Source: Escherichia coli O157:H7
GTDB lineage: Bacteria > Pseudomonadota > Gammaproteobacteria > Enterobacterales > Enterobacteriaceae
Direction: 5' to 3' (one strand)
Assembly (NCBI RefSeq): GCF_013167455.1
Contig: NZ_CP038328.1
DNA: 64,000 nt
The position numbers are program-made. Position 1 is the stretch's first letter. Every line of letters begins with the position of its first letter. This document shows, piece after piece, positions 33,001-36,000 of the stretch.

Positions 33001-36000
33001 CCAACCCGGAGCTGAACCGGCGTCTCCAGAAAGTCGTGATACCATCCACTGGTTGCGCCGCTGTTGGCCATCATCATCGCCAGGATAGCGGCAATGATAA
33101 GAATAATGCCTCCCGAGGCATCACTGCTAAAGAATCGATGCAGATGTTTCACTTTTTATTTCTCTTTCAGGTGAATAGATCGTTTTTACTATTTTACCCC
33201 GCACGAATCATCGTTAAAATCAGATTATAGTGTAGGAATAATTCGTTTTTTACGATCTATAGAAGAATTTGCGCCATCAGCGGTGAGATGCGTTTTTGAC
33301 GGCTGTAAGCGCTGACGGGTGACCCTAAGCCCTGATAATCATAGCTTAAGGTGAGGATTTCTGAGGGATTAATTAGGAAAAGTAATAATTAATTTGTTGT
33401 CAGTCGGCGATGTTTGTTAGGCCAATATTTCAAAAATAATCCAGCTTGTCGTCAATAATTGCGATGAAGAGATAAATTAAAGTTAAATAATTAAATCATT
33501 AAAAAATTACGCCATAAAAATGCGAGGCGTCTTCCGGATTAGAATCGATAAAACAGAATGGGTTAAAGAGAGCGATATAATAGCGGCGGGTGCTTGAGGC
33601 TGTCTGTCTCAGGCATTAGCTGAACGGCAGATAGAGAAAAGCCCCGAGTGATATTTTACCATCAACCCGAGGCCCCCTATATGCTGAACACATGTAGAGT
33701 GCCTCTTACTGACCGTAAGGTCAAGGAGAAGAGAGCAATGAAGCAGCATAAGGTGATGATTGTCGCCCTGATCGTCATCTGTATCACCGCCGTAGTGGCG
33801 GCGCTGGTAACGAGAAAAGACCTCTGTGAGGTTCACATCCGAACTGGCCAGACGGAGGTTGCTGTTTTCACGGCTTACGAATCCGAGTAAGAGCAACGGC
33901 GGGGAGTGATCCCCGCCACTTTACAGGTGCTCGCATATCTTCAACGCACCCTATTTTTACCCAGGCCTGCCCACGGGCAGGCTTTTGGGGAGGTTAGCGG
34001 GTCAGGTCGTCAAAAAACTTCTTCACACCATCAAAGAAGCTCTTTGAGCGCGGGCTGTTGTGCTCGCCGGTTGGGCCACCGAAGCTTTCTTGCAGCTCTT
34101 GCAGCAGCTGTTTCTGCTTCTCGTTCAGGCCTACCGGTGTTTCGACGACAACGCGGCACAGCAAATCACCCTGTGCGCCACCGCGGACAGACTTGACGCC
34201 TTTACCGCGCATACGGAATAGCTTACCGGTCTGGGTTTCGCCAGGCACTTTCAGTTTGACGCGACCATCAAGGGTCGGTACTTCGATTTCACCACCCAGC
34301 GCCGCCATAGCGAAGTTGATCGGGACTTCGCAATACAGGTTGTTGCCTTCACGCTCGAAAATCGGGTGCTGTTTAACCTGAACCTGAACGTACAGATCGC
34401 CTGCCGGTGCGCCGTGTTCACCCGCTTCACCTTCGCCCGCAAGACGGATGCGGTCTCCAGTGTCCACCCCTGCCGGGATTTTAACGGACAGCGTTTTGCT
34501 GCGCTCAACACGACCATGACCATGACATTTGTTGCACGGATCTTTGATCAGCGTACCGCGGCCCTGACAGTGTGGACAGGTCTGCTGCACGGCAAAGAAA
34601 CCCTGGCGCATCTGCACCTGACCAGAACCATGACAGGTCGGACAGGTCTGCGGCTGTGTACCTGGTTTTGCACCGCTACCGTGGCAAACGTCACACTCTT
34701 CCAGAGTCGGAATGCGGATCTCTTTGGTCACGCCACGTACAGCTTCTTCGAGGGTGAGCTCCATGTTATAGCGTAAATCAGCACCGCGCGCCGCACGTTG
34801 ACGACCACGTCCGCCGCCAAAAATATCGCCGAAAACGTCACCAAAAATATCGCTGAAGTCTGCGCCGCCGCCAAAACCGCCGCCGCCCATGCCACCTTGC
34901 TCAAACGCAGCATGACCATACTGATCGTATGCCGCACGTTTTTGCGAGTCGGTCAGAACTTCATAAGCTTCCTTGATCTCTTTAAATTTCGCCTCGGCCT
35001 CTTTGTCACCCTGGTTACGGTCCGGGTGGTATTTCATGGCCAGGCGTTTGTAGGCCTTTTTGATTTCACGCTCTTCCGCTGTTTTGGAAACGCCTAAAAT
35101 CTCGTAATAATCTTGCTTAGCCATCTTTTTTAAATTGCCCCTAGATGAATGCACGGGCGGAGAGGAAATTCCCCTTCGCCCGTGTCAGTATAATTACCCG
35201 TTTATAGGGCGATTATTTTTTGTCTTTGACTTCTTCAAATTCAGCGTCGACAACATCGTCATCTTTCGCGTTGTTTGCAGAAGCATCAGCACCGGCAGTC
35301 TGCTGCTGGGCATGTTGCTGCTGGGCGATTTCCATCAGTTTCTGGGAAACCTGTGCCAGTTCCTGCATTTTCGCTTCGATAGCGGCTTTGTCTTCACCTT
35401 TCAGAGCAGTTTCCAGTGCAGTCAGCGCAGACTCGATAGCAGTTTTGTCGTCAGCCGGCAGTTTGTCGCCTGCTTCTTCAACCTGCTTACGGGTGCTGTG
35501 CAGCAGATGGTCGCCCTGGTTGCGAGTCTGTACCAGCTCTTCAAACTTACGGTCAGCTTCGGCGTTAGCTTCGGCGTCGCGTACCATTTTCTGGATTTCA
35601 TCTTCGTTCAGACCAGAAGACGCCTTGATGGTGATCTTCTGCTCTTTACCGCTGTTTTTATCTTTCGCGGAAACGTGCAGGATACCGTCAGCATCGATAT
35701 CGAAGGTAACTTCGATCTGCGGCATGCCGCGCGGTGCCGGGTTGATACCATCCAGGTTGAACTGACCCAGAGATTTGTTGTCAGCCGCACGTTTACGTTC
35801 ACCCTGCAGCACATGGATGGTTACCGCAGACTGGTTGTCTTCAGCGGTAGAGAACACCTGGCTGTGCTTGGTCGGGATAGTGGTGTTTTTCGCGATCAGC
35901 GTCGTCATCACACCGCCCATGGTTTCGATACCCAGAGACAGCGGGGTAACATCCAGCAGCAGTACGTCTTTTACGTCACCAGTCAGAACACCACCCTGAA

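What the first reader, a model, noticed from the sequence alone, without database searches (positions are those of the whole stretch)
33635..33993. hokC/mokC/sokC type I toxin-antitoxin locus not interrupted by an insertion sequence
The HokC toxin frame and the overlapping mokC frame are intact, and only about 100 bp separate the hokC stop from the dnaJ terminator. In K-12 I recall an IS186 copy inserted just downstream of hokC, which has been proposed to inactivate the locus by removing the 3' fold-back element of the mRNA. Here the native 3' end is present, so this copy may be a functional chromosomal hok/sok system.
Basis: partly seen in the sequence, partly recalled or inferred. Interest (0 to 1): 0.45.

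Follow-up and report, generated by a model that had tools for sequence, protein, structure and literature searches.

The report
Intact hokC/sokC toxin–antitoxin locus, already known
This is the ordinary, uninterrupted form of the E. coli chromosomal hokC/mokC/sokC toxin-antitoxin locus, here in an O157:H7 genome: about 70% of complete E. coli genomes have it, it was described in 1999, and K-12's IS186 copy is a later insertion.

Summary
The window is E. coli O157:H7 (100% identical to O157:H7 records). Between nhaA and dnaJ lies a complete hokC locus. It contains the hokC CDS (33738-33890, 50 aa), the in-frame mokC (33681-33890, 69 aa) and antisense sokC (33689-33631, minus strand). The hok leader matches Rfam RF01794 at 119.5 bits. 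A 3' hairpin sits at 33898-33917, the 3' fold-back element (fbi, 33939-33951) is predicted to pair with the 5' end (tac, 33588-33599), and a terminator hairpin lies just before the dnaJ stop.

K-12 carries IS186A inside the loop of the 3' hairpin, which is a perfect IS186 target, GGGG(N6)CCCC. Apart from that insertion, K-12 differs by only two bases within the mRNA.

The arrangement is not unusual. 3814 of 5425 complete E. coli genomes have the uninterrupted spacer. The target-site duplication in K-12 shows that the empty site is ancestral. An IS-free hokC (strain ECOR24) was characterised by Pedersen and Gerdes in 1999; as relayed by later papers, it did not mediate post-segregational killing and was not activated by rifampicin.

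So the locus is structurally complete, but whether it works physiologically is unproven. Verdict: already known, low interest.

The parts
33576..33581 (+). hokC promoter -10 hexamer TATAAT. The -35 is weak or unclear. +1 is inferred 7 nt downstream.
   Evidence: Read directly. It is aligned with the TATGAT of the R1-type hok promoter and is identical in K-12. The consensus scan did not call it because there is no good -35. Inference by homology.
33588..33986 (+). Inferred full-length hokC mRNA, about 399 nt if it ends at the T-run after the terminator hairpin, or about 372 nt if it ends at the U-rich run right after fbi (about 33959).
   Evidence: The 5' end comes from the start of the Rfam RF01794 match and alignment to the R1-type hok +1. 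The 3' end comes from hairpin I2 plus TTTT. Neither end has been mapped experimentally here.
33588..33599 (+). tac (translational activator) element, GGGUGCUUGAGG.
   Evidence: It pairs with fbi in the full-length fold (pair probabilities 0.94-1.0). It pairs with ucb in the truncated fold and in the Rfam consensus structure. It is invariant in five E. coli lineages.
33606..33617 (+). Partner of tac in the predicted metastable hairpin of the nascent transcript.
   Evidence: Fold of the first 53 nt. This corresponds to the metastable structure described for R1 hok.
33639..33646 (+). ucb / anti-SD box (AGCCCCGA).
   Evidence: It pairs with the mok SD in the full-length fold (4.9 expected bp) and with tac in the truncated fold (6.8 expected bp).
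33631..33689 (-). sokC antisense RNA: 5' tail, stem-loop and U-run.
   Evidence: Coordinates were transferred from K-12 b4413 (16952-17010) through the gap-free alignment A1. The fold is -28 kcal/mol with z = -5.15. There is one base difference from K-12 (33675), and complementarity to the mRNA is kept because the RNA is cis-encoded.
33696..33724 (-). sokC promoter: TTGACC (33724-33719), 17-nt spacer, CACTCT (33701-33696); +1 at 33689.
   Evidence: Read directly. It is aligned with the R1 sok promoter TTGCGC-17-TATCCT and is identical to K-12. The -10 matches the consensus poorly, so the scan did not call it. Activity is inferred from identity with K-12, where sokC is annotated.
33669..33672 (+). 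mokC Shine-Dalgarno sequence, GAGG.
   Evidence: Read directly. It is sequestered by ucb in the full-length fold and pairs with dcb (33701-33705) in the truncated fold.
33681..33890 (+). mokC reading frame (69 aa), in frame with hokC and sharing its stop codon.
   Evidence: It has the same extent as K-12 b0018.
33738..33890 (+). hokC toxin CDS (50 aa). It differs from K-12 and CFT073 HokC only by A6V (33754 T instead of C).
   Evidence: RefSeq annotates it in O157:H7 as WP_000809182.1.
33876..33879 (+). UACG motif at Tyr47, a TadA A-to-I editing site that would recode Tyr to Cys.
   Evidence: The sequence was read directly. Editing of K-12 hokC at about 9% and the Cys46 rationale come from PMC12214031 and the 2026 bioRxiv survey. 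Not tested here.
33898..33917 (+). 3' stem-loop GGCGGGGA-GTGA-TCCCCGCC. It is the likely 3' end and protective hairpin of the processed mRNA. It contains the IS186 target GGGG(N6)CCCC at 33901-33914.
   Evidence: Inverted repeat I1, homologous to the R1 hairpin GGCGGGC-GCAG-GCCCGCC. It is the only GGGG(N6/7)CCCC site in the window. K-12 and TB4019 IS186 copies are inserted in it. The '~330 nt' ECOR24 transcript, counted from 33588, ends at 33917.
33939..33951 (+). fbi (fold-back inhibitory) element, CUUCAACGCACCC.
   Evidence: It forms 12 bp (one bulged C) with tac in the MFE structure, with 11.9 expected bp in the ensemble. It is invariant in five lineages, while the spacer after it varies. 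It occupies the position equivalent to R1 fbi, with a U-A to C-G compensatory difference.
33965..33986 (+). Terminator hairpin GCCTGCCC/GGGCAGGC followed by TTTT on the hokC strand. It is shared with the convergent dnaJ gene.
   Evidence: Inverted repeat I2 and direct reading. The scan missed it because it has only 4 T's.
33994..35124 (-). dnaJ, the convergent neighbour. It is not part of the TA locus and marks its boundary.

Best explanation
The region is the ancestral, uninterrupted hokC/mokC/sokC type I toxin-antitoxin locus of E. coli, here in an O157:H7 chromosome. It is built like hok/sok of plasmid R1.

Inferred mechanism:
1. A weak promoter makes a hokC mRNA of roughly 370-400 nt.
2. 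While the mRNA is nascent, its 5' tac element is held in a metastable hairpin.
3. Once the mRNA is complete, tac pairs with the 3' fbi element. This locks the mRNA in an inert form in which the mokC Shine-Dalgarno sequence is paired with the upstream ucb box.
4. Slow 3' trimming back to the stem-loop at 33898-33917 removes fbi.
5. tac then pairs with ucb, the mokC ribosome-binding region is remodelled, and the SokC target opens.
6. If SokC is present, it binds and the duplex is degraded. If not, mokC is translated and, by coupling, the membrane toxin HokC.

In K-12 and about 30% of E. coli genomes, IS186 has landed in the GGGG(N6)CCCC loop of that 3' stem-loop. This splits the hairpin and moves fbi and the terminator 1.3 kb away.

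Shown here: the sequence elements, their homology, the predicted pairings, and the population frequencies. Inferred: the transcript ends, the processing, the coupling, and any physiological activity.
For: Identity of the window and locus:
- The window is 100% identical to O157:H7 chromosomes over nhaA-hokC-dnaJ.
- Rfam RF01794 matches at 119.5 bits (gathering threshold 59) over 33588-33740.
- Pfam Hok/Gef matches at E = 4e-24.

Predicted mRNA structures:
- The full-length MFE fold closes nt 1-12 with nt 352-364, with pair probabilities 0.94-1.0.
- Full-length form: 11.9 expected tac-fbi bp and 4.9 SD-ucb bp.
- Truncated form: 6.8 tac-ucb bp and 4.7 SD-dcb bp, and accessibility of the SokC-tail target rises from 0.21 to 0.60.
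- This matches the R1 scheme described in PMC9841398.
- The same architecture is predicted for an R1-type locus and for a plasmid hokC-like locus.
- SokC fold: z = -5.15.

Comparison with K-12 and other lineages:
- K-12 is identical except for 2 SNPs within the mRNA, plus IS186A with its target duplication.
- tac, fbi and the hairpin are invariant across lineages.

Population and IS186:
- 3814 of 5425 genomes are uninterrupted.
- IS186 target motif and either-orientation insertion: PMC5009759.

Prior description:
-.
Against: - No transcript ends, processing or toxicity were measured here.
- The tac-to-3'UTR duplex energy alone is not significant against dinucleotide shuffles (173 of 2000 shuffles are as good). 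The fbi assignment therefore rests on homology, conservation and the global fold.
- Both promoters match the sigma-70 consensus poorly, and the scan did not call them.
- The only published test of an IS-free hokC (ECOR24) found no post-segregational killing and no rifampicin activation (citing Pedersen and Gerdes 1999). The R1-like mechanism may therefore not run to completion in vivo.
- HokC here also needs Tyr47-to-Cys RNA editing for the conserved second cysteine, and that editing was low (9%) in K-12.
Confidence: 0.9

Rival explanations
1. The locus is structurally intact but physiologically silent. It would be a relic that keeps all the RNA elements yet never releases enough HokC to matter. 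Possible reasons are a weak promoter, slow or absent 3' processing, SokC excess, or dependence on rare TadA editing of Tyr47. Under this reading the difference from K-12 has no phenotypic consequence.
For: - ECOR24 hokC, also IS-free, did not mediate post-segregational killing and was not rifampicin-activated. The authors suggested chromosomal hok loci are inactive.
- Editing of hokC was only 9% in K-12.
- The hokC promoter lacks a recognisable -35.
- The locus is lost or broken repeatedly without obvious cost: IS186 in about 30% of genomes and a Q3-stop in strain AVS0973.
Against: - tac, fbi, the hairpin, the SDs and the CDS are invariant across lineages, while neighbouring spacers vary. This suggests purifying selection on the RNA elements.
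- HokC coding sequences are toxic when overexpressed.
- R1 hok expressed from a single chromosomal copy under its own promoter is lethal without Sok.
Confidence: 0.45
2. The sequence only looks like a complete hok locus. On this view the apparent fbi-tac pairing is a chance complementarity in a GC-rich spacer, and the 3' UTR is simply the dnaJ terminator region.
For: The duplex-energy shuffle test is weak (p about 0.09).
Against: - The fbi lies at the position homologous to R1 fbi, downstream of the homologous GC hairpin.
- The global fold gives pair probabilities of at least 0.94.
- A plasmid hokC-like locus and the R1-type locus show the same 5'-3' closure, with compensatory differences.
- The fbi is invariant while flanking bases vary.
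Confidence: 0.04

Closest known systems
hokC (gef)/mokC/sokC (sof) of E. coli K-12 (b4412, b0018, b4413)
   Same: It is the orthologous locus between nhaA and dnaJ. From the promoter to the 3' hairpin loop the sequence is identical except for two bases, 33675 and 33754, the latter giving A6V. The dnaJ-proximal part is identical.
   Different: K-12 carries IS186A (1.3 kb) in the hairpin loop with a target duplication, and the window has the empty site. A K-12 gef-like transcript model (K-12 sequence from the mRNA start to 200 nt past the hokC stop, inside IS186) is predicted to sit in the tac-ucb conformation with no fold-back lock.
hokC of E. coli ECOR24 (Pedersen and Gerdes 1999, Mol Microbiol 32:1090)
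   Same: It is an IS-free hokC locus with fbi. The reported transcript of about 330 nt, counted from the inferred +1, ends at the 3' hairpin of the window.
   Different: The primary paper is not in the held library and is known only through citing papers.
hok/mok/sok (parB) of plasmid R1
   Same: It has the same order of elements: tac, metastable partner, ucb, mok SD, sok promoter and antisense RNA, hok, GC hairpin, fbi. It shows the same predicted full-length and truncated conformations. The toxin belongs to the same Pfam family.
   Different: Nucleotide identity is lower (mean column identity is 72% in the three-way alignment with R1-type hok and a plasmid hokC-like locus). mokC is in frame with hokC and shares its stop, whereas the R1 mok ATG lies 58 nt upstream of the hok ATG, so out of frame. 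The location is chromosomal. R1 hok/sok mediates post-segregational killing, and IS-free hokC reportedly does not.

Membership tests
Hok/Gef toxin family (Pfam PF01848) | A small (~50 aa) protein matching the Hok/Gef profile above the gathering threshold. | tested here: met
   84.3 bits against a cutoff of 22, E = 4.2e-24, profile positions 2-42 of 42.
hok/sok type I TA locus | A conserved hok mRNA leader (tac stem, ucb, mok SD, Sok target), as modelled by Rfam RF01794. | tested here: met
   119.5 bits against a gathering score of 59, full-length match to model positions 1-157, at 33588-33740 on the plus strand.
hok/sok type I TA locus | An overlapping mok frame whose SD is sequestered in the full-length mRNA. 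| tested here: met
   ATG at 33681 with an open frame to 33890. The SD GAGG pairs with ucb in the full-length ensemble, with 4.9 expected bp. This is a thermodynamic prediction only.
hok/sok type I TA locus | A cis-encoded antisense Sok RNA with its own promoter, overlapping the mok translation start. | tested here: inconclusive
   The sequence is identical to the K-12 sokC promoter and differs by 1 nt in the RNA. The RNA has a stable stem-loop, z = -5.15. The -10 (CACTCT) is a poor consensus match, and transcription was not measured here.
hok/sok type I TA locus | A 3' fold-back (fbi) element pairing with the 5' tac element in the full-length mRNA. | tested here: met
   A 12-bp helix joins 33588-33599 and 33939-33951, with pair probabilities 0.94-1.0. 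It is conserved. Caveat: duplex energy alone is not significant against shuffles.
hok/sok type I TA locus | A 3' stem-loop that becomes the end of the processed, translatable mRNA. | tested here: inconclusive
   The hairpin is present at 33898-33917 and is homologous to that of R1. The truncated fold switches to tac-ucb. Processing itself cannot be tested in silico.
hok/sok type I TA locus | Toxicity of Hok when Sok is absent, and post-segregational killing. | not testable with these tools
   From the literature only: the HokC CDS is toxic on overexpression, and ECOR24 hokC did not mediate post-segregational killing.
IS186-interrupted hokC allele (K-12 type) | IS186 inserted in the GGGG(N6)CCCC hairpin 3' of hokC. 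| tested here: not met
   The window has the empty site GGGGAGTGATCCCC at 33901-33914. Compare K-12.

The most novel reading that the evidence does not exclude
The IS-free hokC locus of O157:H7 and most wild E. coli could be a working chromosomal killer or dormancy module, with roles such as phage abortive infection, persistence, or protection against plasmid hok addiction. On this reading, the repeated capture of IS186 in either orientation at the homologous 3' hairpins of hokC and hokE reflects selection for switching such modules off, not only the target preference of IS186.
Probability: 0.1. Interest if true: 0.45.

Novelty: already known. Interest (0 to 1): 0.1.

Why it matters
It matters very little as a discovery.

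- The locus is annotated in RefSeq O157:H7 genomes.
- Its IS-free form was described and tested in 1999.
- Comparative maps of this exact nhaA-hokC-dnaJ region, including O157:H7 Sakai, were published in 2014.

The useful points are practical ones:
- K-12 is the atypical strain at this locus.
- The IS186 insertion hits the one canonical IS186 target in the region. That target is also the hairpin expected to cap the processed toxin mRNA.
- Anyone wishing to test chromosomal hok function should use an IS-free allele such as this one, not K-12.

Tried and rejected
- Consensus promoter and terminator scan. It called none of the hokC promoter, the sokC promoter or the terminator, because each departs from the scan's thresholds. 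It is not informative either way.

- Shuffle test of tac against 3'-UTR duplex energy. It gave p of about 0.09, too weak to serve as stand-alone evidence for fbi.

- Junction queries to count IS186 orientations precisely. The counts (1278 and 1380 genomes at 80% coverage or more) are inflated by cross-hits to the homologous hokE-IS186 junction. Only the qualitative result is kept: both orientations occur at 100% identity in multiple genomes.

- Attempt to read Pedersen and Gerdes 1999. The paper is not held, so its results are cited second-hand.

- Considered a genome contigs or metagenome scan for hokC orthologues outside E. coli. Rejected as not needed for the verdict.

- Considered that the Rfam 'sok' hit on the plus strand meant the antitoxin is on the plus strand. 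Rejected, because the model covers the hok leader and ends at the hokC AUG.

Full report
**What is at the coordinates**

The window is an Escherichia coli O157:H7 chromosome segment. The 901 bp around the finding are 100% identical to several O157:H7 records, and the gene order is nhaA (minus strand), hokC locus (plus strand), dnaJ (minus strand).

Direct reading and the ORF list give the following:
- an intact 50-aa hokC frame at 33738-33890;
- an in-frame ATG at 33681 that gives the 69-aa mokC frame, the same extents as K-12 b4412 and b0018.

Both frames match Pfam Hok/Gef (E = 4e-24 and 1e-23). The dnaJ stop codon is at 33994-33996, so 103 bp lie between the two convergent stop codons. No insertion sequence is present.

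The stated start (33635) is about where sokC ends. It leaves out the first ~47 nt of the hokC mRNA and the promoter. The full locus is about 33576-33986.

**Comparison with K-12**

In MG1655, IS186A (15387-16731) sits between dnaJ and hokC, 19 bp beyond the hokC stop. Aligning the K-12 flanks to the window shows these points:
- The hokC side is identical from the promoter to the insertion point, except for two bases inside the mRNA: 33675 (C here, T in K-12) and 33754 (T here, C in K-12, giving Val6 for Ala6).
- The dnaJ side is identical.
- K-12 reads ...GGCGGGGAGTGATCCC-[IS186]-GGGAGTGATCCCCGCC..., and the window reads GGCGGGGAGTGATCCCCGCC. K-12 therefore has a target-site duplication around an insertion into the loop of an 8-bp hairpin (33898-33917).

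The empty site seen here is the ancestral state.

That hairpin contains GGGG-AGTGAT-CCCC (33901-33914). This is the canonical IS186 target 5'-GGGG(N6/N7)CCCC-3' reported from mutation-accumulation lines, where insertions occur in either orientation (PMC5009759). It is the only such site in the 64-kb window.

**How common the uninterrupted state is**

A 246-bp query centred on the hairpin matched in one piece in 3814 of 5425 complete E. coli genomes. In the remaining ~1600 genomes the listed examples break at query positions 113-120, which is inside the hairpin.

Among the interrupted genomes, both orientations of IS186 occur at the same point:
- K-12 and B-type strains have one orientation.
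- Strain TB4019 and others have the opposite one.

IS186 also sits at the homologous hairpin of hokE (H143). Exact counts per orientation could not be obtained, because the hokE junction cross-matches the queries.

The IS-free arrangement is thus the majority and ancestral form. K-12 is the derived one.

**Anatomy and predicted mechanism**

The Rfam family RF01794 matches 33588-33740 on the plus strand at 119.5 bits (gathering threshold 59). Its consensus structure includes the tac-ucb stem, and the match ends at the hokC AUG. Although the family is named 'sok', it models the hok mRNA leader.

I place +1 at about 33588, 7 nt after a TATAAT at 33576-33581. This is by homology with an R1-type hok/sok locus fetched from a plasmid.

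The sokC RNA maps to 33689-33631 on the minus strand, by coordinate transfer from K-12 b4413. It folds into a 5' tail plus a stable stem-loop (-28 kcal/mol, z = -5.15). Its promoter reads TTGACC-17 nt-CACTCT (33724-33696). It aligns with the R1 sok promoter and is identical to that of K-12, but its -10 is poor and the consensus scan did not call it.

Thermodynamic folding of the inferred transcript gives three predicted states:
- **Nascent (first 53 nt):** tac is placed in a local hairpin, 33589-33600 with 33606-33617.
- **Full-length RNA:** nt 1-12 (33588-33599, tac) close with 33939-33951 (fbi) as a 12-bp helix with one bulge. Pair probabilities are 0.94-1.0. The mokC SD (33669-33672) pairs with ucb.
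- **RNA ending just past the 3' hairpin (33921):** it switches to tac-ucb (6.8 expected bp) and SD-dcb (4.7 expected bp). The region bound by the SokC 5' tail becomes more accessible (0.21 to 0.60).

This is the scheme described for R1 hok. The same 5'-3' closure is predicted for the R1-type locus and for a plasmid hokC-like locus, with a U-A to C-G difference between hokC and R1 in the helix.

Across five lineages (O157, CFT073, AVS0973, ET201, MY203L1), tac, fbi and the hairpin are invariant, while the spacer between fbi and the terminator varies.

One caveat applies. The duplex energy of tac against the 3' UTR, taken alone, is not significant against shuffles (173 of 2000). The fbi call therefore rests on homology, conservation and the global fold.

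The 3' end of the primary transcript is uncertain. It is either the U-rich run just after fbi (about 33959) or the T-run after the strong hairpin at 33965-33982. Both include fbi, and both give the same fold. A secondary source gives about 330 nt for the ECOR24 hokC transcript. Counted from 33588, that ends at 33917, the last base of the hairpin, which fits the processed species. This is my inference.

**What IS186 does in K-12**

The insertion splits the hairpin that should cap the processed mRNA, and it moves fbi and the terminator 1.3 kb away. I modelled a gef-like transcript as the K-12 sequence from the mRNA start to 200 nt past the hokC stop, inside IS186. It is predicted to sit in the tac-ucb form without a fold-back lock. 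A secondary source reports that the gef mRNA ends inside IS186 and is still regulated by the antisense RNA.

**Is the intact copy functional?**

Structurally, every defining element is present. The protein differs from the toxic K-12 and CFT073 HokC only by A6V.

Functionally, the evidence is second-hand and mixed:
- HokC coding sequences are toxic on overexpression. However, the IS-free ECOR24 hokC locus did not mediate post-segregational killing and was not activated by rifampicin, which led Pedersen and Gerdes (1999) to regard chromosomal hok loci as inactive.
- R1 hok in single chromosomal copy is lethal without Sok, so copy number as such is not limiting.
- HokC also carries Tyr47 (UAC followed by G, 33876-33879), a TadA editing site that supplies the conserved second cysteine. 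Editing was about 9% in K-12.

I therefore rate 'intact hok/sok-type locus' at about 0.9. I leave 'physiologically active' open, with the silent-relic reading at about 0.45.

**Novelty**

The finding is already known:
- The locus is annotated in O157:H7 RefSeq records (as 'mokC').
- The IS-free form was characterised in 1999.
- The IS186 inactivation in K-12 is textbook for this family.
- Comparative maps of this region across phylogroups, including O157:H7 Sakai, show 'fragmented or complete hokC'.

Interest is low.

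Noticed in passing
window 33588-33740 (+): Rfam RF01794 is named 'sok antitoxin', but its model matches the hok-mRNA strand and ends in the hokC AUG. It models the hok leader, so taking its strand as the antitoxin strand would be wrong.
   Followed up: yes
window 33901-33914; L005 (TB4019) about 1650-3010; L001 (K-12) 1388-2732: IS186 occupies the same GGGG(N6)CCCC hairpin in opposite orientations in different E. coli lineages, which most simply means independent insertions at a hotspot. hokE carries IS186 at its homologous hairpin (GGGGAGTAATCCC).
   Followed up: partly
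L004 (strain CREC8) 1489-3100: The gene order IS150 - hokE - IS186 - dnaJ shows a rearrangement by recombination between the IS186 copies at hokE and hokC. hokC is no longer next to dnaJ in that genome.
   Followed up: partly
L007 (strain AVS0973), hokC codon 3: CAG to TAG at hokC codon 3 stops both the mokC and hokC frames. This is a natural point-mutation knockout in an otherwise IS-free locus. RefSeq annotates a shortened 44-aa Hok/Gef protein there.
   Followed up: no
L006, L007, L008 (CFT073, AVS0973, ET201), upstream of hokC: In these genomes an ompK-like outer-membrane protein gene lies just upstream of hokC, where O157 and K-12 have nhaA. This fits the published divergence of the nhaAR region in B2 strains (PMC4182557).
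   Followed up: no
window 33876-33879 (+): The hokC Tyr47 codon UAC followed by G is a TadA A-to-I editing motif that would recode Tyr to the conserved Cys. Editing has been reported for K-12 hokC at about 9%.
   Followed up: partly
window 33965-33986: The hairpin usually thought of as the dnaJ terminator has its T-run only on the hokC strand. On the dnaJ strand it is followed by CTGGGTAAAAA, so it looks like a better intrinsic terminator for hokC than for dnaJ.
   Followed up: no
L010 (O157:H7 PV15-279) 889-1041: RefSeq labels the 50-aa hokC frame 'mokC' and annotates no sokC RNA in the O157:H7 record. This is a naming and annotation gap, not biology.
   Followed up: yes
window 48981-49100 (-), 35125-35202 (-), 15331-15383 (-), 62179-62257 (-), 43657-43699 (+): Other Rfam matches above gathering score in the window are the Thr operon leader, tpke11 (between dnaK and dnaJ), ES003, naRNA4 and ES036. 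All are expected for this part of the E. coli chromosome.
   Followed up: no
H7 (strain A30, horse; NZ_CP092500.1): An IS1A copy interrupts the nhaA-hokC-dnaJ stretch in this genome, a different IS from IS186. The exact position was not examined.
   Followed up: no
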